IMG/VR virus record: IMGVR_UViG_3300023237_000005
Length of the DNA stretch: 56,585 nucleotides
DNA from: an uncultured virus (IMG/VR IMGVR_UViG_3300023237_000005)
Lineage: Duplodnaviria; Heunggongvirae; Uroviricota; Caudoviricetes
Direction: 5' to 3' (one strand)
The first letter of the stretch is position 1; every line of letters starts with the position of its first letter. Below the pieces are notes generated by a model that had not been told where the DNA came from, made no database searches, and saw only the letters and a list, made by a program, of their open reading frames with translations. Shown piece by piece: positions 1 through 46,947 of the stretch. Both the position numbers and the translations under genes were made by a program.

Positions 1-1
1 T

Positions 2-559
2 AACATAAAAAAACCGGATAAAGTCGCCGAAACTATTAAGACACTATTAGAAAGCATGTCTGGGACATTTGTTTTATTTTACGATAAGCCAACATTTTCT
101 ACAAGAGTTAATAACTTTGCTGGGTTCGTAACATCTCTTGCTAAAGTCGGTGCAGATGGTAGTTTGATGAAAGCTGCAGATGGCTTTGAAGCAATAGCAG
201 AAGCAATCAACTCTGTAGATATTGATAAAGCTGCAGCATTCAGGGGATTATTTGAAGCATCTGCATCATTGACTGAAAGCGGTAGGAATCTTGCAGCATT
301 AGAGGCGATGGTCGAAGCCATAGAGGATGTAAAAGATACACTTAATAGTCAGGGTGGTGGAGGAGCAATTGATAGCATTAAGACAGCGCTAGGATTTGGT
401 AATGCTAAAGAAGCAGTTGTAGAACCTTCTACAACTGCAGAACCTTCAACTGCAGAATTATTTAAAACATTACAGCTTACATTAAATCAGATTAATGCAA
501 CTTTGTCAAATCTTCCTGGTGATATAGCAGCAATTGAGATTAAACTTCCTAGAGATTAA
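2..559 (+). CDS. 5'-truncated Ala-rich helical protein (possibly C-terminus of a tape-measure-like/structural protein)
   Basis: Frame of ORF 56..559 is open back to the window edge; Ala/Leu-rich; function is a guess. Confidence 0.45.
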   Translation, partial: NIKKPDKVAETIKTLLESMSGTFVLFYDKPTFSTRVNNFAGFVTSLAKVGADGSLMKAADGFEAIAEAINSVDIDKAAAFRGLFEASASLTESGRNLAALEAMVEAIEDVKDTLNSQGGGGAIDSIKTALGFGNAKEAVVEPSTTAEPSTAELFKTLQLTLNQINATLSNLPGDIAAIEIKLPRD

Positions 560-630
560 ACAAACTTCCTCAACTGTGGTATAACATCCATGATTGAACG
601 AGGAAGAAGAGTTTAACTAGAATTTACAAA

Positions 631-1422
631 ATGGAAAAAGACATCATTTGGTTTGACTTAGAGTCAACTGGAATTAACACAGCTACAGATCGGGTCATTG
701 AAATCTGTATGATTAAGAAAACATCTTTAGGCAAGGAAATTGAGAGATTTCAAAGTTATGTTAATCCTGAAGGAATGGAAAGTAGACCTGAGGCTATTGA
801 TAAACATGGTATAACTCCAGAGATGTTAGCAGATAAGCCAACGTTTAAAACAATAGCAAAGAAGGTTAACGACTTTATTGGAGATTGCGATCTAGGAGGT
901 TATAATATCTTATATTTTGACATCCCACTACTTACACAAGAATTATTTAGAAGTGGTATTCCTTTCAATCATAGAAGTAGAAAGATCATTGATCCATTCC
1001 TTATTCAAACTGCATACGAACCAAGAGATTTATCAAGCACTTATAATCGTATGACAGGTAAGGTTCTTGAAAATGCCCACGCAGCTGAGGCAGACATAGA
1101 AGCTACTATTGAAATATTTGAATGCCAGAAAACTAAATATGGCCTGCCAGTAGCTCACGCTGAAATAGAAGAATCTTCCATTAAGAATAGAAAGGATCAA
1201 GTTGACTTAGCAAATAGGTTTAAGATTGCTGAAATCGACGGTAAGAGAGAAATCGTTTTCAACTTCGGTAAGAACAAAGGTAAAGTTTTTAAAGATGTTT
1301 TCTCTGAAGACGCTAGTTATATTGACTGGATGATTAATAAAGGTGACTTCCCACTGGAGACTAAAATCATAGCTAAAAAACTGGTAGATAGAATGCAAAA
1401 AGAATCATTTGTAGATATATAA
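631..1422 (+). CDS. dnaQ: DEDDh 3'-5' exonuclease (DNA Pol III epsilon-like) with C-terminal FGK motif domain
   Basis: FDLESTG (ExoI), GYNILYFD (ExoII), AHAAEAD (ExoIII); C-terminal FNFGKNKG..YIDW. Confidence 0.9.
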   Translation: MEKDIIWFDLESTGINTATDRVIEICMIKKTSLGKEIERFQSYVNPEGMESRPEAIDKHGITPEMLADKPTFKTIAKKVNDFIGDCDLGGYNILYFDIPLLTQELFRSGIPFNHRSRKIIDPFLIQTAYEPRDLSSTYNRMTGKVLENAHAAEADIEATIEIFECQKTKYGLPVAHAEIEESSIKNRKDQVDLANRFKIAEIDGKREIVFNFGKNKGKVFKDVFSEDASYIDWMINKGDFPLETKIIAKKLVDRMQKESFVDI

Positions 1423-1434
1423 ATAGAATTATAT

Positions 1435-1765
1435 GGGGGTGAGTAGTATTTGACAGCAGATGAATACTAAGAGTACAGCATGGGTGATGACCTACATCAA
1501 AACTAAGTGGAAACACTGAACTTGCAATTGCCGCCTAATAGTTAGGTACTAATGCATGCCATACTACAGAGTATACTTGTATGTAGGTTAGGCATTAAAG
1601 GAAGTAAGAACGGCATAAGTATTGGCCCAACTAATACAACATATCATTTGGCAGAATTGATCGAAAGCTGCATATTTTTGGAGTCATAAGAAAATGACTA
1701 TCCTAAGCTGTAAAATATTCTTTTTACTAATCTGTATGGACGAGGAGTCGCTTCCTCCACCTCCA
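1435..1765 (+). ncRNA. ssrA: tmRNA; tag (A)GNTELAIAA* at 1509-1538
   Basis: GGGGGTG pairs with CACCTCC-A including G3.U; 5' TTGAC and 3' GGAC motifs; tag frame gga aac act gaa ctt gca att gcc gcc taa. Confidence 0.93.
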
Positions 1766-1789
1766 CATTGATATATAAACATATATCGC

Positions 1790-2074
1790 ATGGAACATAT
1801 TTTAGAGTTTGAAGAGTTTAAACAAAATTCTCAACCACTTGACGAATCAGTTCATTCTGCTGCATCTGAGTTGCTAATGTCAATGATGAGACAATATCAA
1901 CCCCTAATGGCCTTCTTGAAATGGGAAGATACTATAATTGATAAGTTTGACATTGATCCAAAGACAGCTAAGGAGATTAGCAATAAGTTGTATGATAAGA
2001 AGGGTAGTATCAATAAGAATCACTTAAAACAGTTAGCAAACGCAGCAATTAAAGATGCCATTAAAGCTAAATAA
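1790..2074 (+). CDS. Hypothetical protein with N-terminal capsid-targeting-like motif
   Basis: MEHILEFEEF start; GATATATA at 1770. Confidence 0.7.
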   Translation: MEHILEFEEFKQNSQPLDESVHSAASELLMSMMRQYQPLMAFLKWEDTIIDKFDIDPKTAKEISNKLYDKKGSINKNHLKQLANAAIKDAIKAK

Positions 2075-2157
2075 ACAGAAAAAATAATTTTTTGTAATTT
2101 AGGTTCATTTTTAAAAACTATTGTTATAGTCTATATATAATTCAACAAACAGAAACC

Positions 2158-2256
2158 ATGCGCTTACATTGGACAACATATATTAATCTCTTTAACCCGT
2201 CAGGCAACGATACGGCGCAGGCGAGAATATGTAAAAAAGATCCAGGTAAGAGTTAA
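2158..2256 (+). CDS. Putative 32-aa leader peptide MRLHWTTYINLFNPSGNDTAQARICKKDPGKS
   Basis: Short ORF directly upstream of a strong hairpin; its 3' end (GATCCAGG) is complementary to the hairpin 5' arm. Confidence 0.4.
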   Translation: MRLHWTTYINLFNPSGNDTAQARICKKDPGKS

Positions 2257-2274
2257 CAATACATTATAACATTT

Positions 2275-2322
2275 TATAATGGCCTCCTGGATTTAACGAT
2301 TCAGGAGGCCATTATATTTGTT
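2275..2322 (+). terminator. Strong hairpin, terminator/attenuator-like
   Basis: TATAATGGCCTCCTG ... CAGGAGGCCATTATA followed by TTTGTT. Confidence 0.75.
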
Positions 2323-2411
2323 AATATTAATTTAACAGTACGAATATACAACTAACGAAAATTATTTGTATATTTATGATATTATCTAAAACGATAATAT
2401 GTTCTTTGACA
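2319..2411 (+). promoter_or_regulatory. Promoter with tandem TTAAYA repeats, TATATTT element and downstream boxA-like GTTCTTTGACA
   Basis: Same layout recurs at 5406 and (without boxA) 44248. Confidence 0.55.
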
Positions 2412-2528
2412 TCTTGGAAACCAAAAATGAAAGTAAAGTCCTTAACATTCTGTTCAGGCAGGTATTTTTGGGCGCACCTTCTACGACAGCTAAATTAATA
2501 TGAAGCTCGAGAAAAGCGCCCTATATTT

Positions 2529-2599
2529 TCCCGGATCGTCTAGCGGCAGGACGCCAGTTTTTGGAGCTGGTTACGGAGGTTCGAATCCTTCTCTGGGAA
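2529..2599 (+). tRNA. tRNA-Gln(TTG)
   Basis: TCCCGGA/TCTGGGA acceptor; CCAGT-TTTTGGA-GCTGG; GGAGG-TTCGAAT-CCTTC. Confidence 0.93.
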
Positions 2600-2601
2600 C
2601 A

Positions 2602-2682
2602 TTCAGTGTAGCTTAGATTTTCTCATAAAGGAATTAAAGCGTCTTAGCAATAAGAAGTAAGATGAATTAACATCCACTGAAT
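2602..2682 (+). ncRNA. tRNA-shaped RNA A lacking an anticodon loop
   Basis: TTCAGTG/CACTGAA acceptor; TA; GCTT/AAGC D-stem with 22-nt loop; TCTTA-GCAA-TAAGA; GATG-AATTAA-CATC. Confidence 0.65.
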
Positions 2683-2687
2683 AATAT

Positions 2688-2770
2688 GCAAGTGCGCTAG
2701 AGTTGGAGAGCTAGGATGGTCTGTAACACCGTTGGTTAAGCCTGAGTGGGTTCGATTCCCTCCACTTGCA
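2688..2770 (+). tRNA. tRNA-Tyr(GTA)
   Basis: GCAAGTG/CACTTGC; ATGGT-CTGTAAC-ACCGT; long variable arm; TTCGATT T-loop. Confidence 0.92.
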
Positions 2771-2777
2771 CATTGAA

Positions 2778-2863
2778 TGCGGTTCGATTCCGTAAGCTAT
2801 GAGCTATAACTCGTAGCTGCCAAAAGTAGTATAAAGGTTATTGAGTATTATAGTATTTAGGCA
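2778..2863 (+). ncRNA. Structured RNA starting with an isolated T-arm followed by two hairpins (permuted tRNA-like)
   Basis: TGCGG-TTCGATT-CCGTA; AGCTATGAG-CTATAA-CTCGTAGCT; TGCC...GGCA hairpin. Confidence 0.45.
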
Positions 2864-2909
2864 CTTTATTTACAGAGGCCTCGTGGTGAGGTTCATGATA
2901 TTGATATAA

Positions 2910-2994
2910 GTCCCGTTCGTCTAACCTCCGGAATTAATCCTCCAAACGGACAACAAGCGCTTGTGAATATGAGTATGGAATCTCATGCGGGACC
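2910..2994 (+). ncRNA. tRNA-shaped RNA B lacking an anticodon loop (tRNA-Glu-like 5' end)
   Basis: GTCCCGT/GCGGGAC acceptor; TC; GTC/GAC D-stem with enlarged loop; ACAA-GCGC-TTGT; ATGAG-TATGGAAT-CTCAT. Confidence 0.65.
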
Positions 2995-3002
2995 AAGTAT
3001 AA

Positions 3003-3077
3003 GCGAAAGTAGCTCAGTCTGGCCAGAGCATCAGATTTCCAATCTGAGGGTCGAGAGTTCGAATCTCTTCTTTCGCT
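3003..3077 (+). tRNA. tRNA-Gly(TCC)
   Basis: GCGAAAG/CTTTCGC; TCAGA-TTTCCAA-TCTGA; canonical D and T arms; U73. Confidence 0.95.
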
Positions 3078-3117
3078 CACTATACTATTTTTACCATCTT
3101 CTACTGATATATGCTTC

Positions 3118-3312
3118 ATGGAAGAGGTAAAGAAAGTAAGACATGCTATAAGGCGTAAGTATCATATCATTTATAAAACTACGTGTACTATCACTAATAA
3201 GTTTTATGTTAGTATGCATTCAACAGATAATCTTGAAGATGGTTATCAAGGTTCTGGTAAACGATTAAAATATTCTGTAAATAAGCATGGTATAACACAT
3301 ATTCCTCATTAG
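3118..3312 (+). pseudogene. Truncated Seg-like GIY-YIG homing endonuclease
   Basis: YHIIYKTTC..NKFYVSMHST....GYQGSG; only 64 aa, runs into tRNA-Thr. Confidence 0.75.
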
Positions 3313-3376
3313 CTCAGTTGGCCAGAGCGGTTGTTTTGTAAACAACAGGTCATCGGTTCGAACCCGGTATGAGGAT
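3303..3376 (+). tRNA. tRNA-Thr(TGT)
   Basis: TCCTCAT/ATGAGGA; GTTGT-TTTGTAA-ACAAC; ATCGG-TTCGAAC-CCGGT. Confidence 0.94.
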
Positions 3377-3403
3377 CAATAAATAAAATAAATAAACAAC
3401 GTC

Positions 3404-3895
3404 ATGAAAGTAATTGTACTAAATGCGGATCTACGTCCGATTAATGTTACAACTTTCAAAAAAGGGTTTAAGCTGATTTACAAAGGTAAAGCAGAGGTAC
3501 TTGAAACATATGAGGATGACTACATTGTGACTTACACACGGAAATTTCTTAGGCCAAGGGTTATACGTCTTCTAAACTACGTAAACTTACCATACAGAAA
3601 ATTATCACCAACAAAGAGAAATATCTTCAAGAGAGATAATTTCACTTGTATGTATTGTCCTGGTAAGAAAGACCTAACACTTGACCATGTTCAACCTAAG
3701 TCAAGAGGTGGGAAAGATACTTGGAAGAATCTAGTTACAGCTTGTTCAAAGTGTAACAATAAGAAAGATAATAAGACTCCACAAGAAGCAGGTATGAAAT
3801 TAAGAAAGGCACCAACAGCACCTTCTCTTATGGAATTGCTTGATTTAGATTCTGTGAAGATCTTTGAAAGTCTAGCGAAAGCATACACATATTGA
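3404..3895 (+). CDS. HNH endonuclease (McrA-like)
   Basis: VLNAD..P; RD.FTCMYC; LTLDHVQPKSRGG..TW.NLVTAC..CN..K. Confidence 0.92.
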   Translation: MKVIVLNADLRPINVTTFKKGFKLIYKGKAEVLETYEDDYIVTYTRKFLRPRVIRLLNYVNLPYRKLSPTKRNIFKRDNFTCMYCPGKKDLTLDHVQPKSRGGKDTWKNLVTACSKCNNKKDNKTPQEAGMKLRKAPTAPSLMELLDLDSVKIFESLAKAYTY

Positions 3896-3948
3896 ATTGA
3901 GAATGAAGTAGTATGTAATAAATTTTATGTACTACTTCTATTTTCAAT
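3896..3948 (+). terminator. Long inverted repeat after the HNH gene
   Basis: ATTGAGAATGAAGTAGTATGTAA ... TTATGTACTACTTCTATTTTCAAT. Confidence 0.55.
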
Positions 3949-4015
3949 CTAATTAAGTCAATTGTTATTTCCTTGACTAAAGTCCAATAAATAACATATA
4001 TGAAAATAGTATAAT

Positions 4016-4384
4016 ATGTGGATGGAATTAGTGATGTCGTTATTATTTTTTAGTATTAGTAGTGCTCAGGCACAAACAGTAGAACCACCAGTTGACGCTG
4101 ATGAATTTGGATGGTTACGTTGGGCAGTGATAATATTATCAGGATTAGTACTAACAGGTACTACGGCATTCTTTGCATTTATTAAACTGTCGTTTGAAAC
4201 TCGCATTACTGATAAAGATGAGGAAATAAAAAGATTAACTCATTCAACAGAAGGACAAGCTATAGTTATAGCTAAGCTTCAGAGCGATAAAGATAGCTTA
4301 AATAAGGATATGCAGGATAAAGTTATTCCAGCGTTAACGAGTGCAAGCGATCTTATAAGAACATTTTTAAATAGCGCAAGATAA
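4016..4384 (+). CDS. Membrane protein (signal peptide, TM helix, coiled coil)
   Basis: Hydrophobic N-terminus with AQA site, second hydrophobic helix. Confidence 0.65.
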   Translation: MWMELVMSLLFFSISSAQAQTVEPPVDADEFGWLRWAVIILSGLVLTGTTAFFAFIKLSFETRITDKDEEIKRLTHSTEGQAIVIAKLQSDKDSLNKDMQDKVIPALTSASDLIRTFLNSAR

Positions 4385-4809
4385 TGGAAATAATATCTAC
4401 AGAATTTGTGAGACAGCAGCTTAACGATGCTTGTGCTGATCTTGAAAGTTGCATCCATGAGTTTAGAGTACTATGTGGTACTAACGATTGGAAAGAACAT
4501 ATCATTAATATAACTGATGAGTTCACAGATATATTTCCAGACATTATGGCTAAAGTGATATTTCCAAATAAGAAAACTGGAAATAGGACTATTATGATTA
4601 AGGCTAAAGCAGGATCTAAAATTAATCTACATAAAATGTTACCTCTTAGATTTGTGTATGTAGTACATGGAGACCAACGAGATGAAACCGGTGTGATAGT
4701 TCTAAATGAAGACGAAAGCATGATAATTCAAACATTAGAAGAAAGTTCAATGTATTTTAAAATTGATACTAAGCTTATTATGGAATTTGAAGAAGATGAA
4801 GCAGCATAA
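4384..4809 (+). CDS. Hypothetical protein, possible cupin-like beta-barrel
   Basis: KAGSKINLH...YVVHG pattern; coupled to neighbours. Confidence 0.5.
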   Translation: MEIISTEFVRQQLNDACADLESCIHEFRVLCGTNDWKEHIINITDEFTDIFPDIMAKVIFPNKKTGNRTIMIKAKAGSKINLHKMLPLRFVYVVHGDQRDETGVIVLNEDESMIIQTLEESSMYFKIDTKLIMEFEEDEAA

Positions 4810-5230
4810 TATTGGCACTATACAAGATAATGTAGAAAGTTCTGTAAAGAATCTAACATTTCTTATAGATGAATTTAAACAAGTAAGTACATTATTAGAT
4901 CTGTTAGAACATAAGACGTGTCCTATGTTTGTTACTTATGCTGATGAACACGGTTATTTCAAATATGTTAATCAAAATTTCGCAGATGTATTAGGTTACA
5001 CTAAGAAAGAATTATACAATATTCCTTGGACAGAGTTAATGTCAAAACAAGAAGCTGAAAGAGTATTTAAAGAGTTAAATAAAATACTTAAAGGTGGTGA
5101 AGCATTTACAAACTATAAGACGACCTATAAAACTAAAGACGGTAAAGATATACCGCTTACTTGGTTTACCGGTCCAGTTGGTGAGATGGAAGATCAAACA
5201 GTTGCAATCTGTTTCGCATACTCACACTAA
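4796..5230 (+). CDS. Stand-alone PAS domain protein
   Basis: YVNQNFADVLGYTKKEL and YKTKDGKDIPL PAS/PAC signatures; ATG at 4796 in frame with ORF 4763. Confidence 0.85.
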   Translation: MKQHNIGTIQDNVESSVKNLTFLIDEFKQVSTLLDLLEHKTCPMFVTYADEHGYFKYVNQNFADVLGYTKKELYNIPWTELMSKQEAERVFKELNKILKGGEAFTNYKTTYKTKDGKDIPLTWFTGPVGEMEDQTVAICFAYSH

Positions 5231-5260
5231 TTTCAAATTTCAACAATTTTATTTAATTAT

Positions 5261-5336
5261 CAGGCAGTAGAGGAGTCCGGTTTATCTCGACGCATTTGGG
5301 GTGCGTAGTACGTGAGTTCGAATCTCACCTGCCTGA
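5261..5336 (+). tRNA. tRNA-Pro(TGG)
   Basis: CAGGCAG/CTGCCTG; ACGCA-TTTGGGG-TGCGT; GTGAG-TTCGAAT-CTCAC. Confidence 0.93.
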
Positions 5337-5405
5337 CTATTTTTACCATCTTCTAATGGTATACAATTGGAAGAAAGATGAACTTCTAATCTGTATCACC
5401 TTCAT

Positions 5406-5498
5406 TGTTAACATTAAATTAACATTGGGGGATGTATAAGTAAGCATTTAATAGTGTATATTGATAATGTCAATAAAACTGATGGTGGTTCTTTAAAA
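5406..5498 (+). promoter_or_regulatory. Promoter with TGTTAACATTAAATTAACA repeat, TATATTG element and boxA-like GTTCTTTAAAA
   Basis: Near-identical spacing to the 2319 element. Confidence 0.55.
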
Positions 5499-5503
5499 CA
5501 TAC

Positions 5504-5737
5504 ATGGTGGAACATATAGATAAGAAAGGTAAAGTAACATGGAAGGCTGTTAATTTGAGTGATAGATCATCTGGGCATGGTCCAATTGATATTACTACTG
5601 GGCAGTTGTATTACAACCTCTATTTAATGATGACAGATGCAACTAATCGTTCACTTAAAATAGCATCTGCATTAGACAGTTTACAATCAAAAACTAATGA
5701 AGTTGCACTAAAAGCAATTTTAGCTAAGAAATTCTAA
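5504..5737 (+). CDS. Hypothetical protein
   Basis: ORF track; follows promoter. Confidence 0.5.
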   Translation: MVEHIDKKGKVTWKAVNLSDRSSGHGPIDITTGQLYYNLYLMMTDATNRSLKIASALDSLQSKTNEVALKAILAKKF

Positions 5738-6002
5738 AAGAAGGTTCAGTAAATGATTATTATGTTATATTCTATTAGTAATTCGATTGAGACGGACAGA
5801 AGGAAAGATTAGAAAACATTAAATTACTGATAACGGTTTCAACAATTTAAAAGCGTTGTTATTATTACTACAGATTGAATAAAATATTGAATTAATTTTA
5901 CTTTTAATTTAAGGCAACTTAGCGGTTACTTAATAAGTGCGGGCTCGGAACTCGGATTGATGTTAAAGTAAAGATGGTGTGGATCCAAGCACTAATTCAT
6001 TC

Positions 6003-6013
6003 GTTCTTTGAAA
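6003..6013 (+). promoter_or_regulatory. boxA-like antitermination motif
   Basis: GTTCTTTGAAA just upstream of the large ncRNA. Confidence 0.5.
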
Positions 6014-6014
6014 T

Positions 6015-6985
6015 TATAAGCATTGGGAGGTTTAAGTTCCAATCAGCCTATCGGTTGACGTGAAACAGTTCGGCTGTCAATAAAATCATAGGTTGAAAAA
6101 AGAATAAGAATCTGCAAAGATTCAGAAAGGGGGAAGTGTTACACTAACCCGCCTAATTCGTTAGGTTCGTTTAAGCAAGTGACGTCTTAATTGCCACCTA
6201 GGCAAGACTTCGATACCAATCGGAGGATAAGCAGAAAGTTAGAGTTGTTGTCCCTTAGGAAAGGATACTACCAGAGCCGGTCGGTGAGGTACAATATTAT
6301 AGAGGTATAATAGCAGCAACATACCAATCTAATAAGTGCTAAATTGGATAAGTCATAGGATATGAGTCTAAGTTGATTACTAAAACGAAGGCAAGTAACC
6401 AATTTAAGAGAAGAAAGGATAGTTAAATATCCAAAGTAATCTTGAAGAATTGCACATAAGACTTAGTAAGTCTAAAACGCATAGAGGTGTGTTGTATTTT
6501 GAATCTCAAAAGGATTTAGATCAGCTGTCAGGGCACGTCTCAGTAACTTAAATAACATTAATTGTTAGCTCAGTTGGTAGAGCTCCTGTATTCTAAACAG
6601 GTTGTCGGTGGTTCAAATCCTCCACAATTGTATAAATGAAAACGCAAAGGCCTTGACACTAGTAGGAAAGCAAATTACCTAAGCCCAAAGTTCTTCGGAG
6701 CAATTTGGGATCACAGAAACTCGCAAAGTGAAAGTGATTTAATTTAAGTCTGCATCAAATCATCGTAGCGATGGTGAATGGCTCGCAAGGTCAGGAGAAT
6801 GATAAAAGTTGAGTAGACCTGCTATGGATAAGAGTATAGCCTCTCTTTAAAAAAGGCGGTAATGTTGGCAAACATTTTTGAGCTGCAAAGCTGAGAATGT
6901 GGATAAGATGAGAACCTATTGGAATAAGCCCTGATTGGATAATACATCGAAGGTGTTAACGTACAACGTGTAATCTCAACGTTTT
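6015..6985 (+). ncRNA. Large structured ncRNA, GOLLD-like, with embedded tRNA (boundaries approximate)
   Basis: ~1 kb without ORFs inside a tRNA array; many GNRA/UUCG-capped hairpins; CTCAAAAGG; GTTGAG pairing with 3' CTCAAC; internal tRNA. Confidence 0.7.
6559..6631 (+). tRNA. Atypical tRNA, anticodon TCT (Arg-like), inside the large ncRNA
   Basis: TAATTGT/ACAATTG; GCTC-AGTTGGTA-GAGC; CCTGT-ATTCTAA-ACAGG; GGTGG-TTCAAAT-CCTCC. Confidence 0.75.
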
Positions 6986-7018
6986 AAAACTTTTACAGTC
7001 AAACGAATAACGTAATAT

Positions 7019-7091
7019 CGCGGAGAAGAGCAAATGGGTGTTCGCTAGGCTCATAACCTAGAGGTTGTCGGTTCGAGTCCGACCTCCGCAA
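7019..7091 (+). tRNA. tRNA-Met(CAT), initiator type
   Basis: C1.A72 mismatch (CGCGGAG/CTCCGCA); CTAGG-CTCATAA-CCTAG. Confidence 0.92.
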
Positions 7092-7121
7092 CAGTCACAT
7101 TTCAGAATTAATATATAGCTA

Positions 7122-7973
7122 ATGAAAAGTCTATTTTTATTACTGTTTACACTTTTAGTTTCAGGTTGTTCAACTATGCATAGTGCATACGATGAACATT
7201 ATGTCATTGACCAGCCGCAAGTAGTTGAAGTTCAACATGTTCCGGTTTATGATAGTTATTATAACAATACGAATGCTTTCATCATTCGGTATTATTACCC
7301 TTACTTAATTTATTCTCAGCCGTATTATTGGAACAGTTGTAGGCATTATCATCATTCTCGCTATTATAATTATAGTTGTCCACATTATTACAATTCGTAC
7401 TATAATTGTTATGTATATACCGGGTATAGTAACTTTGGATCTTATGGAGTTCCTGGACCTCATTATAATGGTTGGGATGTAGTATATAGTAGAACTTATT
7501 ATGGGCATCGGCAGATGTGGTATAGCACGGTACCGTTGATGTCGAGAATAGCCAGAAGTACTAAGCCTGAGGTACGACAACAAGCTACACCTATTAGGCG
7601 AGACGTTAAACCTCAACGACAGTTAGAACCAAAGCCAGAAATTAGACACCAGCCTCAACGACAGGTTGAAAGACAACCACAGCCAGAAATTAGACACCAG
7701 CCTCAACGACAGTTACAGCCAAAGCCAGAAATTAGACACCAGCCTCAACGACAGTTACAGCCAAAGCCAGAAATTAGACACCAGCCTCAACGACAGTTGC
7801 AGCCAAAGCCAGAAATTAGACACCAGCCTCAACGACAAGTTGAAAGACAACACCAGCCTCAACGACAAGTTACACCTCAACAACAGCAATATAGAAGGCC
7901 TAGGACTCAGACTCAATATCCTAAGGTAATACCTATTAAAACATCGACGTTAAATCAAAAGCGTCCAAGATAA
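7122..7973 (+). CDS. Lipoprotein with Tyr-rich region and Gln/Pro/Arg-rich repeat tail
   Basis: Lipobox-like VSGC after a hydrophobic signal; PEIRHQPQRQ repeats. Confidence 0.8.
   Translation: MKSLFLLLFTLLVSGCSTMHSAYDEHYVIDQPQVVEVQHVPVYDSYYNNTNAFIIRYYYPYLIYSQPYYWNSCRHYHHSRYYNYSCPHYYNSYYNCYVYTGYSNFGSYGVPGPHYNGWDVVYSRTYYGHRQMWYSTVPLMSRIARSTKPEVRQQATPIRRDVKPQRQLEPKPEIRHQPQRQVERQPQPEIRHQPQRQLQPKPEIRHQPQRQLQPKPEIRHQPQRQLQPKPEIRHQPQRQVERQHQPQRQVTPQQQQYRRPRTQTQYPKVIPIKTSTLNQKRPR
7611..7872 (+). repeat. Coding tandem repeat, ~42-bp unit (QPKPEIRHQPQRQL), 5 copies plus partial
   Basis: Repeated ccaaagccagaaattagacaccagcctcaacgacag. Confidence 0.9.
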
Positions 7974-7977
7974 AGAT

Positions 7978-8244
7978 ATGGAATTAATATGCATATTTGC
8001 TATCATTTGTACACATTGGGTTACAGACTTCGTCTTTCAAGATGAAAAATGGGCACTTGGAAAAAGTAAAAGCAATAGAGAACTTCTAAAGCATACGATA
8101 ACGTATTCACTGTTATTATTTCCTTTAGCAATCTTTCTCGGTTGGAATATCATTCCATTCATACTTATCAATTTTATATTGTATAGTTATATTACAACAG
8201 AATTAAATAAACGAAATGAAAAAACCAGAGGTAATGACAGATGA
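7978..8244 (+). CDS. DUF3307-like membrane protein, probably truncated
   Basis: HWVTDFVFQ...K....LL.H...Y motif. Confidence 0.6.
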   Translation: MELICIFAIICTHWVTDFVFQDEKWALGKSKSNRELLKHTITYSLLLFPLAIFLGWNIIPFILINFILYSYITTELNKRNEKTRGNDR

Positions 8245-8452
8245 GCAGCTGCTCGAATGTAAACAATTCCTGGACTATTTTAGGGTTAAGTACGATGGTA
8301 AAGTCATTGAAATTAACTCGGGTGGAAATGGCATGGTTTTTAGAACTGATGGTAAGTTTTCTGAAAACTTTGTTGGATGTTCAATTAATAGTATTGCAGA
8401 AGCAGTAGCTAGAAAATTAGGAAAGAAAATACAAAGAGAACAAGAATACTAA
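8216..8452 (+). CDS. Hypothetical protein
   Basis: ORF track. Confidence 0.55.
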   Translation: MKKPEVMTDEQLLECKQFLDYFRVKYDGKVIEINSGGNGMVFRTDGKFSENFVGCSINSIAEAVARKLGKKIQREQEY

Positions 8453-8459
8453 AATATAC

Positions 8460-8526
8460 GGTGGATGTAGTGGTAACACGACTGCTTGTGGTGCAGTTAT
8501 CGAGGGTTCAACTCCCTTCGTCTACC
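8460..8526 (+). tRNA. tRNA-His(GTG) with G-1 and shortened D-arm
   Basis: G-1/C73; GTGGATG/CGTCTAC; ACTGC-TTGTGGT-GCAGT; D-arm only GTG-GTAA-CAC. Confidence 0.85.
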
Positions 8527-8528
8527 CA

Positions 8529-8694
8529 AAAGAAGAGAAGTAGTTAAAGCTGTTAGGTTAACAAACTCAGATATACTTGAGTCACTGTAATGCTGCACTG
8601 GGAGAATGACCCACTTACGAACAAAGGTTAATAGTAGTAAGACAGAGTTTATAGCAAACCAGTAACCTCGAAAGACCCGAAGCTTCTCTTCTTT
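8529..8694 (+). ncRNA. 166-nt structured RNA of unknown class between tRNA-His and tRNA-Cys
   Basis: Perfect 12-bp closing stem AAAGAAGAGAAG/CTTCTCTTCTTT; internal AAACTC/GAGTTT and AGGTTA/TAACCT pairings. Confidence 0.6.
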
Positions 8695-8700
8695 ATTATT

Positions 8701-8773
8701 GGTCGCGTGGCCGAGTGGCTTTAGGCATAGGACTGCAAATCCTACTACGTGTGTTCGACTCACACCGCGACCT
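8701..8773 (+). tRNA. tRNA-Cys(GCA)
   Basis: GGTCGCG/CGCGACC; TAGGA-CTGCAAA-TCCTA; U73. Confidence 0.95.
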
Positions 8774-8859
8774 CAATCTCATATTTATCATTATTTTTAC
8801 ATCTAAAATGTACAAGCTATGACAATAATAGTTATATTGATAATATAAATAAAGCTGAT

Positions 8860-9102
8860 ATGGTAGGATTAGAAAAGTATACAGATGGTCTGCAGATGGA
8901 TAAGTTTCCAACCATCAAAGAGATAAGTGTTTACAGCAACATTTATTGTGTAGGTTTTGATGGCGATCTTCTATTTGGAGAAGCTGACGATGACAACACA
9001 ACTGAATGGTTCTTGGTTGAAAATGAGTCTTTTAAGTATCTTGGAGAATCCCATACAACAGAAGGTGATAAATTGATTAGGTATAAGACAAGGCAAACGT
9101 AA
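8860..9102 (+). CDS. Hypothetical protein
   Basis: In-frame ATG at 8860 of ORF 8749..9102, whose upstream part overlaps tRNA-Cys. Confidence 0.55.
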   Translation: MVGLEKYTDGLQMDKFPTIKEISVYSNIYCVGFDGDLLFGEADDDNTTEWFLVENESFKYLGESHTTEGDKLIRYKTRQT

Positions 9103-9233
9103 GAGAAGGTAAACCAAGTTTTGTTAAATAAGAACATTATGATAACAGTATCACAAACATAGATAGCAGGACTGGTCAATATATGAAATTGTTTAACAAA
9201 ACTATAACTTCACGTTATAATAAATAAAGGAAA

Positions 9234-10043
9234 ATGAAAGTTCTAAGCTTAGGTGATATTCATGGAAGAGATGTTTGGAAAACTATTCTCTTTGGCTCTA
9301 ATGTAGCTTATGATCATTGGAAGATTGCAGTTTTTGAAGGTGCACCTTTTGATTATGATGAAAGCTTACCATTTATGGAGTATGATCAGATCATATTTGT
9401 AGGTGATTATGTTGATAGTTTTGACATTTACTCTGCATTGATTATTCATAACTTGAAAGAGATCATTGAATTTAAGAAAGCAGTAGGTGATAAGGTTATA
9501 CTCCTAATAGGAAATCACGACATATCTTATTTTGTGGATGGTCATAGATGTAGTGGTCACAGACCTGAAAGTCAAATTGACATCGATCTTATCTTCAAAG
9601 GTAATCTTGATCTGTTTAAATTTGCACATCAGTTAGAAATTACTGGTAAGACATATCTTTGGACACATGCTGGAGTTACTAATAACTGGCTTAAAGAAAT
9701 GAGAAGCGAATTATATTCTGGGACGATGAGGTTTGCTGATATCGTTAAAGAAAGTCCTACTGATACTTATGAAGACGAATTAAATTTAGCATGGCAATTT
9801 AAACTGCCTAGCATATTTAATTGCGACGCAGATAGTGGGGGTTATAGCTCTTATGCTGGTCCAGTTTGGGTAAGACCAAGAAGACTTAATCATGATGCTG
9901 TACGTGGAATTAATCAAATTGTAGGTCATACTATGAGAGATAGAGTCATAGAAACGAAAGTTAATGATGATACTACACTGTGGTATATTGACTGCTTGGA
10001 GTTTGGAGACGAAAAGGTTTTTAAGCTAATCATAGATACATGA
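9234..10043 (+). CDS. Calcineurin-like metallophosphoesterase
   Basis: GDIHG, GDYVD, GNHD, HAG, VGHT motifs. Confidence 0.92.
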   Translation: MKVLSLGDIHGRDVWKTILFGSNVAYDHWKIAVFEGAPFDYDESLPFMEYDQIIFVGDYVDSFDIYSALIIHNLKEIIEFKKAVGDKVILLIGNHDISYFVDGHRCSGHRPESQIDIDLIFKGNLDLFKFAHQLEITGKTYLWTHAGVTNNWLKEMRSELYSGTMRFADIVKESPTDTYEDELNLAWQFKLPSIFNCDADSGGYSSYAGPVWVRPRRLNHDAVRGINQIVGHTMRDRVIETKVNDDTTLWYIDCLEFGDEKVFKLIIDT

Positions 10044-10228
10044 TGAAGAAAGACTATTTCTGGATAAAGCGTATAATTGAGTGCGGGACTAATGAAAATA
10101 AACATCGTCCCGCACTTCTTATGCTAATAAAGCTCTTTGAAAAGAAATGGAAAGCACATCCATCGGTAAATCCATCATTTTTGAATATGAGTCTTAAGAG
10201 TTTAAATTATTGTTTAAAACAAGTTTAA
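10040..10228 (+). CDS. Hypothetical protein
   Basis: ORF overlapping upstream stop. Confidence 0.55.
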   Translation: MMKKDYFWIKRIIECGTNENKHRPALLMLIKLFEKKWKAHPSVNPSFLNMSLKSLNYCLKQV

Positions 10229-10250
10229 ATAAATGCCATATAAATAATCA

Positions 10251-12149
10251 ATGGCATCAATAGATAAGAAGTACCAAAAGCTTACAGATGTAGAACACGT
10301 TCTACACAGGCCGGGCATGTACGTTGGCTCTATCAAAACACATACAGAAGAGTGTTGGATTTTAGAGAATGGCAAGTTTGTATTAAAGTGGGTTAGCTAT
10401 AATCCTGGCTTTCTAAAGTTATTCGATGAGATTATTTCAAACTCAGTTGACGAACATATTCGTGATCCTAAGCTTACTAAAATTAAGGTTACGATAGACC
10501 AACAGGCACACCGGATAACTGTCCATGACAACGGTGGTATACCAGTAAAAATTCATAGTAAGTACAACGAGTGGATCCCAGAAATGATCTTCTCTAACCT
10601 TAAAGCTGGTAGTAATTTTGATGACACAGAACAAAGGATAGTTGTAGGTACTAACGGTGTTGGTTCTACACTTACGAATATCTTCTCTCACGAATTTTCA
10701 ATATCAACATGTGATGGTAAAAAGAAATTCGTTCAGAAGTTCACTAAGAACATGTCTGTTCGGACCAAACCAAAAATTACAAGCGGTAAAGTAGGCTCTA
10801 CTGAAATTTCATTTATACCTGACCTGAAAAGATTTGGTATGATGAGTATTGACGATGGTGCAATTGCAATGATTAAGAAGCGAATGTTAGATATCGCAGC
10901 TTGCAATACTTCATTGTCATTAGAACTTAATGGTGAGAAGTTAAAGTATTCATCATTTAAACAATATGCTGAGTGTTATACTTCACCTGTACTCTACGAA
11001 GCATCTAAAAACTGGAAGATAGGTGTAGGTCATTCCACAAATGGTTTCCGAGCTATATCATTTGTAAATTCAGTAGAAACGAAAGACGGTGGTACACATG
11101 TAAATGTTATACTTAACCAAATCGTTAAGTCTATGCGGGAATTAATAATTAAGAAGTATAAGTATGATGTAAAACCATCTGACATCAAGCAGCATATATT
11201 TCTATTCATAGATTCTACTATTGTAAATCCAGCATTCTCATCTCAAACTAAAGAGAAGCTTATCACTGAACCGAGAGAATTTGGAAGTGAACATGAAATA
11301 TCTGAGAAGTTGCTTGTGGCAATTTATAAATCTGAAATCCTTCAATCCGTATTAGATTGGATGGAGCAAAAACAAGATGCAGAAGCTAAGCGAGAATTAC
11401 GCAAAGCTAATAGCTCACTTGATCGTAGTAAAGTTACTAAGCTCGTAGATGCAAAAGCCAGAGGTGACAGAAGTAACTGTACTTTGGCAGTGTTTGAGGG
11501 AGATTCTGCGTCTTCTGCCTTTAAAACCTACCGAGATCCAAAGACGCAAGGTGCCTTTCCATTAAGGGGAAAGTTTATAAATGTAACGGGTGCTAAAGCT
11601 ACGAAGGTAATTCAGAATAAAGAAGTCATATCGTTGATGGCATCTTTAGGATTACAGATAGGAAAGCCAGCCAAGAATCTAAGATATGGTAAAGTATTGC
11701 TGTACACGGACGCAGATTTCGATGGCAATGCGATTTCTGGACTTCTTATTAACTTCTTTGCTAAATACTGGCCTGAAATGCTAGAACATGGTATGATATG
11801 TAAAGTAGATACTCCCCTTTTAGTTGCACGCAAAGGAAAGAAAATTTTATCTTTCTATACTGATGATGAGTACACTTCTTGGCTTAGTAAAACAAAGGAT
11901 GTAAAACAGTGGGATATAGAATATAAGAAAGGATTAGCAGCACTTGAGAACGATGAATATAAAGAGATCATCAAAAATCCAAACATATACGTATTTAAGC
12001 CTGACGATATGTATGAAGATACACTCTTATCTTGGTTCGGAGATGATTCTTCTCCACGCAAAGATAGGATTATGGGTGTAGAATTACCAAAGAAAGTAAT
12101 TCGTTCTAAGAAAAAAAGCAGCAGAATACAAAATGCTAAATTATTCTAA
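10251..12149 (+). CDS. Type IIA DNA topoisomerase, ATPase/TOPRIM subunit (T4 gp39+60-like)
   Basis: EHVLHRPGMYVGS, EIISNSVD, GTNGVG, EGDSA, PLRGK, TDADFDG, KGLA. Confidence 0.97.
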   Translation: MASIDKKYQKLTDVEHVLHRPGMYVGSIKTHTEECWILENGKFVLKWVSYNPGFLKLFDEIISNSVDEHIRDPKLTKIKVTIDQQAHRITVHDNGGIPVKIHSKYNEWIPEMIFSNLKAGSNFDDTEQRIVVGTNGVGSTLTNIFSHEFSISTCDGKKKFVQKFTKNMSVRTKPKITSGKVGSTEISFIPDLKRFGMMSIDDGAIAMIKKRMLDIAACNTSLSLELNGEKLKYSSFKQYAECYTSPVLYEASKNWKIGVGHSTNGFRAISFVNSVETKDGGTHVNVILNQIVKSMRELIIKKYKYDVKPSDIKQHIFLFIDSTIVNPAFSSQTKEKLITEPREFGSEHEISEKLLVAIYKSEILQSVLDWMEQKQDAEAKRELRKANSSLDRSKVTKLVDAKARGDRSNCTLAVFEGDSASSAFKTYRDPKTQGAFPLRGKFINVTGAKATKVIQNKEVISLMASLGLQIGKPAKNLRYGKVLLYTDADFDGNAISGLLINFFAKYWPEMLEHGMICKVDTPLLVARKGKKILSFYTDDEYTSWLSKTKDVKQWDIEYKKGLAALENDEYKEIIKNPNIYVFKPDDMYEDTLLSWFGDDSSPRKDRIMGVELPKKVIRSKKKSSRIQNAKLF

Positions 12150-23304: not shown

Positions 23305-23335
23305 GTGACGATAGACTTATAATGATATATACTAT

Positions 23336-46713: not shown

Positions 46714-46947
46714 ATGCTGAATAAGAAACTGAAGATATTACTCAAAACAGATTATAAGAAGATAGCCAAGACTATTAAATCTATCCATGACAAAAAAGAA
46801 TGTGGGATGGGTTCTAAGATAATGCTATATCGTGCAACTACACGAATGATTACTAACTTTCAAAATAATTTGGAATTTCGATTACCATTTGGACATGATA
46901 TTTCTAAACGTGTCGATGAATTGATAGAATATAATAACGAACGATGA
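46714..46947 (+). CDS. Hypothetical protein
   Basis: ORF track. Confidence 0.55.
   Translation: MLNKKLKILLKTDYKKIAKTIKSIHDKKECGMGSKIMLYRATTRMITNFQNNLEFRLPFGHDISKRVDELIEYNNER

What the first reader, a model, noticed from the sequence alone, without database searches (positions are those of the whole stretch)
2602..2682. tRNA-shaped RNA A: GNRA tetraloop replaces the anticodon loop
Parse: TTCAGTG | TA | GCTT | AGATTTTCTCATAAAGGAATTA | AAGC | G | TCTTA | GCAA | TAAGA | AGTAA | GATG | AATTAA | CATC | CACTGAA | T. All four helices are Watson-Crick perfect. It starts 2 nt after tRNA-Gln and ends 5 nt before tRNA-Tyr, so processing of its neighbours would release it.
Basis: seen in the sequence. 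Interest (0 to 1): 0.75.

Follow-up and report, generated by a model that had tools for sequence, protein, structure and literature searches.

The report
Anticodon-less tRNA look-alike in phage
A salt-lake phage carries, in one slot of its row of tRNA genes, a small tRNA-shaped RNA gene whose codon-reading loop is sealed shut, so it cannot work as a tRNA; what it does is unknown and no relative was found to test whether it is kept by selection.

Summary
Window 2602-2682 folds into a four-arm cloverleaf with 20 of 20 Watson-Crick pairs. It fills the 87-nt gap between tRNA-Gln and tRNA-Tyr in the tRNA operon of a large T4-like phage. A GCAA (GNRA) tetraloop sits where the anticodon loop should be. 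A generous all-Watson-Crick cloverleaf descriptor hit 5 times in 200 shuffles of the window, so chance is unlikely.

I add three points:
- The "22-nt D-loop" probably closes into a further 6-bp hairpin.
- A2601:U2682 gives an eighth acceptor pair, so acceptor plus T stem is 8+4 = 12 bp, the canonical length.
- The tRNA core bases are kept (U8, A9, G10, A14, A21, G26, A44, G45), but G18G19, the T-loop motif and the anticodon loop are gone.

Rfam and ARAGORN call nothing. No homologue was found in any collection searched. All metagenome copies are identical and no RNA data exist, so selection and expression are untested.

Best reading (0.5): a non-decoding, tRNA-derived stable RNA cut out by tRNA-processing enzymes. 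This resembles the T4 species 1 and 2 RNAs, and the function is unknown. Main rival (0.25): a tRNA relic. I rate it a new variant of a known kind, of moderate interest.

The parts
2601..2683 (+). Whole tRNA-shaped RNA, including the optional 8th acceptor pair A2601:U2682 and A2683 as discriminator in the 8-bp reading
   Evidence: MFE cloverleaf of -19.0 kcal/mol, z -3.27, 0 of 200 shuffles as good. Identical copy at L023:3411-3491.
2602..2608 (+). Acceptor stem, 5' strand UUCAGUG. It pairs with 2675-2681.
   Evidence: Sequence. Pair probabilities 0.94-1.0.
2609..2615 (+). U8 A9 linker, D-stem 5' strand GCUU (pairs with 2637-2640) and A14
   Evidence: Sequence. D-stem probabilities 0.83-0.99. 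U8, A9, G10 and A14 stand where the tRNA consensus has them, by my reading against the Rfam tRNA consensus line printed.
2616..2635 (+). Hairpin that replaces the D-loop: GAUUUU / GGAAUU with the loop CUCAUAAA (2622-2629)
   Evidence: Present in the MFE and centroid folds. Probabilities 0.38-0.84. Three G-U pairs make it specific to the + strand; the reverse complement folds worse, at -15.7 kcal/mol.
2636..2641 (+). A21-equivalent, D-stem 3' strand AAGC, and G26-equivalent
   Evidence: Sequence
2642..2655 (+). Arm at the anticodon position: 5-bp stem UCUUA/UAAGA capped by the GNRA tetraloop GCAA (2647-2650)
   Evidence: Sequence. Probabilities 0.83-0.95.
2656..2660 (+). Variable region AGUAA (A44 and G45 equivalents)
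   Evidence: Sequence
2661..2674 (+). T-arm equivalent: 4-bp stem GAUG/CAUC with the 6-nt loop AAUUAA. There is no TTC motif.
   Evidence: Sequence. Probability 0.95.
2675..2682 (+). Acceptor stem 3' strand CACUGAA, then U2682. U2682 is the discriminator in the 7-bp reading, or the partner of A2601 in the 8-bp reading.
   Evidence: Sequence. The A2601:U2682 pair has probability 0.82.
2529..2601 (+). Upstream neighbour tRNA-Gln(UUG) with its trailing CA
   Evidence: ARAGORN. Rfam tRNA 57.2 bits.
2688..2772 (+). Downstream neighbour tRNA-Tyr(GUA) with its trailing CA
   Evidence: ARAGORN. Rfam tRNA 34.9 bits.
2275..2374 (+). Terminator-like hairpin (2275-2316), then a promoter-like site (2345-2374), upstream of the tRNA array. 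This is the possible start of the transcription unit.
   Evidence: Consensus scan only; not evidence of function.

Best explanation
The element is a non-decoding, tRNA-derived RNA gene that occupies one slot of the phage's tRNA operon.

Shown:
- It folds as a four-way junction.
- It keeps a perfect acceptor stem stacked directly on a T-like hairpin. That is 7+4 bp, or 8+4 = 12 bp if A2601:U2682 is counted.
- It keeps a canonical D stem and the tRNA core bases U8, A9, G10, A14, A21, G26, A44 and G45.
- All three working loops are replaced. The anticodon loop is a closed GCAA tetraloop. The D-loop (G18G19) is a closed hairpin. The T-loop is a 6-nt AAUUAA.

Inferred:
- It is co-transcribed with tRNA-Gln and tRNA-Tyr.
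- RNase P cuts its 5' end. If the 12-bp helix is what is measured, the cut most likely falls between C2600 and A2601.
- RNase P acting on tRNA-Tyr, plus 3' trimming, frees its 3' end.
- The roughly 82-nt product persists as a stable RNA that cannot read codons and probably lacks the normal tRNA elbow.

It would then be a counterpart of the small stable RNAs that sit in phase in other phage tRNA clusters, such as T4 species 1 and 2 RNA. It would act by tRNA mimicry, engaging some factor that reads the acceptor/T helix and core rather than the anticodon. The partner is unknown.
For: Structure and statistics:
- The cloverleaf is the MFE fold. z is -2.8 to -3.3, with 4 of 200 and 0 of 200 shuffles as good.
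- All 20 pairs are Watson-Crick.
- The all-Watson-Crick descriptor hit 5 times in 200 shuffled windows, against 3 real hits of which 2 are tRNAs.

Position:
- The element fills the 87-nt gap between two tRNAs, with 2-nt and 5-nt spacers.
- No ORF of 50 aa or more overlaps it on either strand.
- The slot after tRNA-Gln holds a real tRNA in other phage arrays: Arg(ACG) in L029 and L032, His in L046, Leu in T4.

TRNA ancestry (read against the consensus printed; the tertiary roles of these bases are recalled textbook knowledge):
- U8, A9, G10, C11, A14, A21, G26, A44 and G45 are in place.
- The loop-closing pair of the T stem is G-C.

Hint of selection on pairing (inference only):
- The element is 30% G+C, against 41-58% for the nine real tRNAs.
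- Its overall similarity to 66 distinct tRNAs is below typical tRNA-to-tRNA similarity (median score 35 against 46).
- Yet no stem pair is broken. This fits pairs kept while the sequence drifted to the genome's composition.

Precedent:
- T4 rnaD and rnaC are annotated small stable RNAs. They lie 1 nt and 6 nt behind their neighbours in the T4 tRNA cluster.
- In rnaC a canonical T hairpin sits near the 3' end and the two ends pair.

Acceptor branch:
- 8/4 acceptor branches are reported in phage tRNA clusters (PMC5389517, passages seen).
- One such unannotated tRNA-Ser(GCU)-like gene is in L046.
Against: - No divergent homologue was found, so there is no covariation or conservation test at all.
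- Every copy seen is identical. This is the same phage re-sampled, not independent support.
- There are no expression or end-mapping data.
- The element lacks the 'CA' that follows the discriminator in 7 of 9 real tRNAs here. It has U|AA or A|AU instead.
- Its -1 base is A or C, where 7 of 9 real tRNAs have U.
- The T-loop and D-loop motifs are absent. By recalled knowledge, RNase P and the CCA-adding enzyme use these motifs at the tRNA elbow, so processing may be poor.
- Four short A/U-rich helices are cheap to make in a 35% G+C genome.
- The D-arm extension rests on three G-U pairs and has modest probabilities.
- No candidate protein partner is encoded nearby.
Confidence: 0.5

Rival explanations
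1. Decaying tRNA gene (pseudogene). A former tRNA in this slot lost its anticodon loop and elbow motifs. It is now carried along, still transcribed and perhaps still cut out, but with no function of its own.
For: - It sits in a slot that holds real tRNAs in other arrays.
- The region is an accessory island full of homing-endonuclease genes and remnants, where rearrangement is expected. A SegB-like remnant lies at 3165-3294 and an HNH ORF at 3404-3895. The island is absent in kin.
- The element lacks the 3' CA signature of the working tRNAs.
- There is no conservation evidence.
Against: - Neutral decay should break stems as readily as loops. Here 20 of 20 pairs are perfect, plus an eighth acceptor pair, while every loop motif is gone and G+C has fallen to 30%.
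- The loops are not merely mutated. They are closed into orderly structures, a GNRA tetraloop and a hairpin.
Confidence: 0.25
2. Processing or folding helper (t-element-like). The cloverleaf exists only to give RNase P and 3'-end enzymes a cutting site, or to space and order the maturation of tRNA-Gln and tRNA-Tyr. The excised piece is then discarded.
For: - Its tRNA-like acceptor/T helix and junction resemble known tRNA-like processing signals: plant-mitochondrial t-elements and mascRNA (both recalled).
- Earlier notes of this scan read several sealed-anticodon mimics this way (unchecked leads).
Against: - Both neighbours are tRNAs that bring their own processing sites, so a punctuation mark is redundant here.
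- Other tRNA pairs in related arrays abut with 1-5 nt and no spacer element.
Confidence: 0.08
3. Unorthodox decoding tRNA. The long first arm (4 bp + A.A + 6 bp) would be the anticodon arm. Its loop CUCAUAA(A) reads like a tRNA-Met/Ile2 anticodon loop (anticodon CAU). The GCAA hairpin would be a long variable arm, making a D-arm-less 8/4 tRNA.
For: - The loop 2622-2629 contains CUCAUAA, the textbook C32-U33-CAU-A37-A38 pattern.
- An 8/4 acceptor branch is possible, and 8/4 tRNAs occur in phages.
- A 5-bp stem with a 4-nt loop is a typical variable-arm size (recalled).
Against: - The loop has 8 nt in the best register. The 7-nt register leaves only 4 pairs and then an A.A mismatch.
- The stem has three G-U pairs.
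- In the tRNA junction the first arm points to the elbow, not to the decoding site (recalled geometry).
- U8, A14, A21 and G26 fit a D stem, not an anticodon stem.
- ARAGORN in mitochondrial mode, which allows armless tRNAs, makes no call at its default threshold (the -ps80 output was cut before this region).
- A loose YU-NNN-R pattern in an 8-nt loop is expected by chance in roughly one case in six (my estimate).
- The complement TTTATGAG is not enriched in the window: 5 sites against 4.25 expected.
Confidence: 0.03
4. Chance fold of an A/T-rich spacer
For: Short A/U helices arise easily. Loose descriptors that allow G-U pairs hit many places in the window.
Against: - The all-Watson-Crick descriptor hit 5 times in 200 shuffled windows, searched on both strands.
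- The fold uses 81-83 of the 87 nt of the gap, and in the tRNA register.
- The tRNA core bases are in place.
Confidence: 0.03

Closest known systems
Phage T4 species 1 RNA (rnaC) and species 2 RNA (rnaD), the small stable RNAs of the T4 tRNA cluster
   Same: - They are non-tRNA RNA genes lying in phase in a T4-like phage's tRNA array, 1 nt and 6 nt from their neighbours.
- The T4 cluster also begins with tRNA-Gln and holds a SegB homing endonuclease, of which this window has a remnant.
- rnaC has a T hairpin near its 3' end and paired ends.
- No function is named in the T4 annotation; that none is known is recalled.
   Different: - They are 139 and 119 nt long and are not four-arm cloverleaves in the predicted fold.
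- rnaC keeps a canonical GGUUCGAAUCC T arm, which this element lacks.
- There is no sequence similarity.
- The T4 RNAs are annotated as stable RNAs, whereas this one has no RNA evidence.
Canonical bacterial and phage tRNA (Rfam RF00005)
   Same: - 7-bp acceptor stem, 2-nt linker, 4-bp D stem, 5-bp third stem and 5-nt variable region.
- T hairpin abutting the acceptor 3' strand.
- Core bases U8, A9, G10, A14, A21 and G26.
- Position in a tRNA array.
   Different: - 4-nt GCAA loop instead of a 7-nt anticodon loop.
- No G18G19.
- 4-bp T stem with a 6-nt loop that lacks TTC.
- 30% G+C.
- No hit by Rfam at E <= 10. No hit by ARAGORN at its default or relaxed (-ps80) bacterial threshold or in default mitochondrial mode.
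(8/4) tRNAs and allo-tRNAs (Mukai et al. 2017, PMC5389517; passages seen)
   Same: - A possible 8-bp acceptor and 4-bp T stem make a 12-bp branch.
- The D stem is lengthened.
- 8/4 tRNA-Ser and tRNA-His are reported in phage tRNA clusters.
   Different: - Those tRNAs keep a 7-nt anticodon loop, a D-arm tetraloop and a long variable arm, and they decode.
- This element has none of the three.
mascRNA / menRNA and plant-mitochondrial t-elements
   Same: Cloverleaf-like RNAs without a working anticodon loop that are, or could be, cut by RNase P and RNase Z.
   Different: - They are eukaryotic or organellar.
- They mark the ends of long RNAs or mRNAs, whereas this one lies between two tRNAs.
- There is no Rfam match to RF01684 or any other family.
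tRNA-like domains of tmRNA and of bacterial Y RNAs (YrlA; PMC4201824, seen in a search listing only)
   Same: Acceptor/T-helix mimicry without an anticodon. The phage also encodes a tmRNA 0.8 kb upstream.
   Different: - Those domains are parts of larger RNAs with known partners (SmpB and AlaRS; Ro60).
- The element has C3-G70, not G3.U70.
- No Ro60/TROVE gene was found in the window.
- There is no Rfam match.

Membership tests
Canonical tRNA (RF00005) | Acceptor stem of 7 bp with the T arm stacked directly on its 3' strand | tested here: met
   UUCAGUG/CACUGAA, with no nucleotide between CAUC and CACUGAA. Probabilities 0.94-1.0.
Canonical tRNA (RF00005) | 7-nt anticodon loop with U33 and a purine at 37 | tested here: not met
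   The loop is the 4-nt GCAA, closed by A-U.
Canonical tRNA (RF00005) | T arm of 5 bp with a 7-nt T-Psi-C loop, and a D-loop with G18G19 | tested here: not met
   The T stem has 4 bp and the loop is AAUUAA. The D-loop region has no GG available and is predicted to pair.
Canonical tRNA (RF00005) | Core bases U8, A14, A21 and purine 26 | tested here: met
   U2609, A2615, A2636 and G2641, compared with the consensus printed.
Canonical tRNA (RF00005) | Recognition by the covariance model or a tRNA finder | tested here: not met
   No RF00005 hit at E <= 10 in 1.2-kb and 95-nt searches. ARAGORN makes no call at its default threshold, at -ps80, or in default -mt and -mtx modes; the -mt -ps80 output was cut before this region.
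(8/4) tRNA / allo-tRNA | 12-bp acceptor branch made of 8 + 4 bp | tested here: inconclusive
   The A2601:U2682 pair is available (probability 0.82) and the T stem has 4 bp. Which 5' end is made in vivo is unknown.
(8/4) tRNA / allo-tRNA | Long variable arm, D-arm tetraloop and 7-nt anticodon loop | tested here: not met
   The variable region is 5 nt, the D-arm loop is 8 nt and the anticodon-position loop is 4 nt. Features as described in PMC5389517.
Small stable RNAs of phage tRNA clusters (T4 rnaC/rnaD type) | Non-tRNA gene in phase within a phage tRNA array, a few nt from its neighbours | tested here: met
   Spacers of 2 and 5 nt here, and 1 and 6 nt in T4.
Small stable RNAs of phage tRNA clusters (T4 rnaC/rnaD type) | Accumulates as a discrete stable RNA | not testable with these tools
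   No RNA run holds the stretch.
Small stable RNAs of phage tRNA clusters (T4 rnaC/rnaD type) | Sequence or structural homology to rnaC or rnaD | tested here: not met
   The blastn of window 1-12000 against all held loci gave only a SegB-region match to the T4 locus L047. The predicted folds differ.
GNRA tetraloop | G-N-R-A sequence closing a Watson-Crick helix | tested here: met
   G2647 C A A2650 on the 5-bp stem. The 3-D fold of the loop was not tested.
mascRNA-menRNA (RF01684), tmRNA, Y RNA tRNA-like domains | Match to the family's covariance model | tested here: not met
   No hit to any of the 4227 Rfam families apart from four snoRNA/lncRNA noise hits at E 4.8-9.5.

The most novel reading that the evidence does not exclude
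The element is one member of a widespread and, as far as my searches show, undescribed class of phage-encoded 'sealed-anticodon' tRNA mimics. These would be stable RNAs made by the tRNA-processing machinery that keep the acceptor/T helix and tRNA core but close the anticodon loop with a GNRA tetraloop.

They would act in the phage-host conflict over tRNAs. For example, they might occupy or mislead a host factor that recognises the tRNA body, such as a tRNA-directed defence nuclease, a processing or modification enzyme, or a sensor.

A bolder sub-reading is that the exposed GNRA loop docks on a receptor in another RNA, such as the GOLLD RNA encoded 3.8 kb downstream. GOLLD forms nanocages and often lies beside or around phage tRNAs (bioRxiv 10.1101/2024.12.08.627333, passages seen).

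Earlier notes of this scan list similar mimics in crAss-like, phiKZ-like, AR9-like and archaeal viruses. Those are unchecked leads, not support.
Probability: 0.2. Interest if true: 0.8.

Novelty: new variant of a known kind. Interest (0 to 1): 0.45.

Why it matters
Phage tRNA arrays are usually read as codon-supply or anti-defence kits made only of working tRNAs. Small non-tRNA RNAs inside them have been known since T4, and their function was never explained (recalled).

This element is a clean, minimal example. It keeps the tRNA junction and acceptor helix and has every working loop deliberately closed. If such RNAs are made and kept by selection, they point to a use of the tRNA shape other than decoding, such as decoy, sponge, scaffold or docking partner. 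They would also be missed by every standard annotation tool.

This single case cannot show that. It has no relatives and no RNA data. It adds one well-defined candidate and a testable design.

Tried and rejected
Known families and tRNA finders:
- Rfam gathering on the whole window, at E <= 10 on 2300-3500 and on 2596-2690. Nothing credible.
- ARAGORN at its default threshold and at -ps80, -mt and -mtx: no call at the element. The -mt -ps80 listing was cut, so it says nothing about this region.

Homologue hunts:
- blastn of 2300-3500 against 50,697 phage records gave only homing-endonuclease and tRNA hits.
- blastn of 2596-2690 at E <= 10 gave 3 records, all noise inside protein genes.
- Four IMG/VR pattern scans for the element. 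Searches gave 0 hits. One search gave 1 hit (L049), a chance 19-mer with the stems broken.
- Two IMG/VR anchor scans on tRNA-Gln and tRNA-Tyr found L046 and L048. These are other phages without the element.
- Genome contigs pattern scan: 0 hits.
- Relatives by the exonuclease gene gave 5 viral and 23 metagenome loci. Relatives by topoisomerase gave 17 loci.
- Covariance model R1, built from the single sequence, was run over the window and loci L001-L046 and L049 (L047 and L048 were not searched) and 2 whole viral records. It found only the identical copy in L023. 3 of the 5 handles were not held.
- A structural descriptor run over all 577 kb of held DNA found only chance-level sites. One of them, L015:1386-1473, has z -0.69 and was rejected.

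Population and expression data:
- 20 DNA runs from 19 studies hold the stretch, and no RNA holder is listed.
- Contigs of 4 runs laid on 2400-3100 show 0 differences inside the element. They also show a second phage whose tRNA-Gln is followed by other sequence.

Origin:
- Global alignment to the distinct tRNAs among the 77 ARAGORN called in the held loci gave no assignable parent type.
- No likeness to T4 tRNA-Leu or to class II tRNAs, nor to tRNA-Arg(ACG) of kin.

Targets and partners:
- The complement of the D-arm loop is not enriched in the window.
- No tRNA-related partner gene was found nearby.

Earlier scan notes:
- Nothing on this genome or sequence.

Literature:
- Six full-text searches were answered. 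None turned up a description of anticodon-less tRNA mimics in phage tRNA arrays.
- A seventh search, for rnaC/rnaD, failed on term length and was not repeated.
- No supplements were opened.

Full report
WHAT THE WINDOW IS

All long ORFs lie on the + strand and G+C is about 35%. PHROGs and Pfam hits include:
- both topoisomerase II subunits
- a DNA-polymerase-type exonuclease
- thymidylate synthase
- PhoH
- two sigma factors
- a ClpB-like ATPase
- UvdE
- a helicase

This is a fragment of a large T4-like phage. No whole genome is held for the window. Public runs that hold the stretch are labelled salt-lake metagenomes.

Positions 2529-8774 carry nine tRNA genes. A GOLLD RNA (163.9 bits) has tRNA-Arg embedded in it. 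A tmRNA lies just upstream at 1435-1768.

In kin, the exonuclease gene, the tmRNA and the topoisomerase gene lie close together. Examples are L031 and L003/L026. In this window, roughly 1.8-10.2 kb, including the whole tRNA array, is extra.

THE OBSERVATION

2602-2682 forms four helices of 7, 4, 5 and 4 bp, all Watson-Crick. GCAA sits at the anticodon position. The element starts 2 nt after tRNA-Gln and ends 5 nt before tRNA-Tyr.

RNAfold returns this cloverleaf as the minimum-energy structure:
- 2602-2682: -17.8 kcal/mol, z -2.81, 4 of 200 shuffles as good.
- 2601-2683: -19.0 kcal/mol, z -3.27, 0 of 200.

The fold survives in a 401-nt context and at 4-37 C. Helix probabilities are 0.82-1.0.

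As a chance control I wrote a deliberately wide all-Watson-Crick cloverleaf descriptor. It finds three sites in the real window on both strands: this element and two true tRNAs. It finds five sites in 200 dinucleotide shuffles of the whole window. With G-U pairs allowed, the same shape is common, so the perfection of the pairs carries the signal. No ORF of 50 aa or more overlaps the element.

WHAT I ADD TO THE ANATOMY

1. The 22-nt 'D-loop' is predicted to pair (GAUUUU/GGAAUU, three G-U pairs). This leaves A14 and A21 as a 1x1 internal loop and an 8-nt end loop, CUCAUAAA. The probabilities are only 0.38-0.84.
2. A2601 can pair with U2682. The acceptor stem is then 8 bp and, with the 4-bp T stem, the acceptor branch is 12 bp, as in a normal 7+5 tRNA. 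An 8/4 arrangement is known from phage tRNA-Ser and tRNA-His (PMC5389517, passages seen). An unannotated 8/4-looking tRNA-Ser(GCU) sits in a gap of the L046 array.
3. Read against the tRNA consensus, the element keeps U8, A9, G10, C11, A14, A21, G26, A44, G45 and a G-C pair closing the T stem. By recalled textbook knowledge these bases build the tRNA core. It has lost G18G19, the T-Psi-C loop and the anticodon loop.
4. It is 30% G+C, against 41-58% for the nine real tRNAs.
5. Seven of the nine real tRNAs have U at -1 and 'CA' straight after the discriminator (read). The element's -1 base is the A of tRNA-Gln's own CA. Its 3' side reads U|AA or A|AU, so it lacks that 3' signature.

KNOWN FAMILIES

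Rfam gives nothing at E <= 10, even on a 95-nt search. ARAGORN makes no call at its default threshold or at a relaxed threshold or in default mitochondrial mode. It does call weak spurious tRNAs elsewhere.

THE SEARCH FOR RELATIVES

This was the main effort and it failed.
- The only other copy is identical (L023, the same phage).
- The closest kin by the exonuclease gene are L002, L024 and L025, at 81-91% protein identity. They either end before the region or lack the island.
- blastn against deposited phages found nothing credible.
- Four element patterns and two tRNA anchors in IMG/VR found nothing.
- A genome contigs pattern scan and a one-sequence covariance model run over the window and most held loci plus two whole viral records also found nothing.
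- L049 and L015:1386-1473 were chance hits.
- Twenty DNA runs from 19 studies hold the stretch, and no RNA run is listed.
- Contigs of four runs show no difference inside the element.

There is therefore no covariation, no conservation test and no expression evidence.

CONTEXT THAT DOES BEAR ON IT

The slot behind tRNA-Gln holds a real tRNA in other arrays:
- Arg(ACG) in L029 and L032
- His in L046
- Leu in T4

The T4 cluster also carries two annotated small stable RNAs, rnaD and rnaC. They lie in phase, 1 and 6 nt from their neighbours, beside a SegB homing endonuclease. This window has a SegB-like remnant and an HNH endonuclease inside its array. rnaC shows a canonical T hairpin near its 3' end and paired termini, but it is not a cloverleaf. 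A terminator-like hairpin and a promoter-like site precede the array (consensus matches only).

INTERPRETATION

Chance is unlikely on the numbers.

A working tRNA is excluded at the anticodon position. The alternative is that the CUCAUAA(A) loop of the first arm acts as a CAU anticodon loop. I rate this at about 3%. The loop is 8 nt, the stem is weak, the first arm of a tRNA junction points to the elbow (recalled), and the D-stem and core bases fit a D arm.

Two readings remain: an RNA kept for its shape, and a relic.

For selection:
- Every stem is intact.
- Every loop motif is gone.
- The base composition has drifted to that of the genome.
- The loops are closed in an orderly way.

For a relic:
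- The region is rearranged and endonuclease-ridden.
- The 3' signature is missing.
- There is no conservation evidence of any kind.

A pure punctuation role is redundant between two tRNAs.

I therefore commit, at 0.5, to a non-decoding tRNA-derived stable RNA released by RNase P and 3' trimming and acting by tRNA mimicry. The partner is unknown. The relic reading stands at 0.25.

Earlier notes of this scan describe similar sealed-anticodon mimics in unrelated phages. They are unchecked AI notes and I use them only as a lead for the novel case.

LITERATURE

Six answered full-text searches found no description of anticodon-less tRNA mimics in phage tRNA arrays. I also read passages of the following:
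- PMC5389517
- PMC7824862
- PMC13191261
- PMC13434031
- PMC10690425
- bioRxiv 10.1101/2024.12.08.627333
- PMC7609411

PMC10690425 reports many tRNA-like candidate structures in viruses without this feature being named in the passages I saw. PMC7609411, a review of non-canonical tRNAs, contains neither 'phage' nor 'tetraloop'. No supplements were opened, so catalogues in them could hold similar elements.

VERDICT

The feature is real and well formed. It is a new variant of the known kind 'tRNA-like stable RNA in a phage tRNA cluster'. Its function is unknown and it has no comparative or RNA support. Interest 0.45.

Noticed in passing
window 1435-1768 (+): A phage-encoded tmRNA. Rfam RF00023 scores 51.6 bits (gathering threshold 47) in a local search. 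Both ARAGORN and the whole-window gathering run missed it. It aligns at about 80-84% with regions where ARAGORN calls tmRNAs in kin such as L024 (tag GNTELAMAA).
   Followed up: partly
window 6482-6982 (+), with 5740-6480 upstream: A GOLLD RNA (163.9 bits) with tRNA-Arg(UCU) embedded at 6559-6631. The ORF-free, structured-looking 0.7 kb before it may be the variable 5' domain.
   Followed up: no
window about 1.8-10.2 kb: The whole block is absent from kin, where topoisomerase follows the tmRNA within about 0.5 kb (L031, L003/L026). The block comprises the tRNA array, GOLLD, the endonuclease genes and several small ORFs, so it is an accessory island.
   Followed up: partly
window 2529-8775, tRNA flanks: Seven of the nine tRNAs have U at -1, and seven of nine have 'CA' directly after the discriminator. 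None encodes CCA (read). This is a shared processing signature of unknown meaning.
   Followed up: partly
window 2779-2793 (+): A lone T-arm-like hairpin, GCGGTTCGATTCCGT, lies 8 nt after tRNA-Tyr. It is possibly the remnant of a tRNA 3' half.
   Followed up: no
window 3084-3111 and 5336-5363 (+): A 28-nt direct repeat (93% identical) lies just downstream of tRNA-Gly and tRNA-Pro. The first copy starts a strong hairpin. A second repeat pair lies at 5457-5483 and 8833-8859, ahead of small ORFs.
   Followed up: no
window 3165-3294 and 3404-3895 (+): A SegB/SegD-like GIY-YIG remnant (72-74% nucleotide identity to T-even seg genes) and an intact HNH endonuclease ORF lie inside the tRNA array. This echoes segB in the T4 tRNA cluster.
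   Followed up: partly
window 22582-25070 (+): PhoH is split in two. The N-terminal part is at 22582-23304 and the C-terminal part at 24681-25070, with a 451-aa ORF bearing a GIY-YIG domain between them. This looks like a homing-endonuclease or intron-type insertion.
   Followed up: no
window 40912-43035 (+): A ClpB-like AAA+ ATPase with a weak intein-splicing-domain hit at its N-terminus (residues 8-75, below the Pfam cut-off).
   Followed up: no
window 46944-47522 (+): An ORF with the HAD domain of 'Swiss Army Knife' RNA-repair proteins (PF18143, 75.7 bits). It is the only RNA-repair-type gene seen in the window.
   Followed up: no
window 7583-7879 (+): Six copies of a 42-nt period repeat inside ORF 7122-7973.
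   Followed up: no
L046 205-299, 611-827, 1650-1833 (- strand): Gaps in another phage's 21-tRNA array hold tRNA genes that ARAGORN misses. One is an 8/4-looking tRNA-Ser(GCU) with a D-arm tetraloop and a 4-bp T stem. The others are likely tRNA-Phe(GAA) and tRNA-Ala(UGC) (anticodons read by eye).
   Followed up: partly
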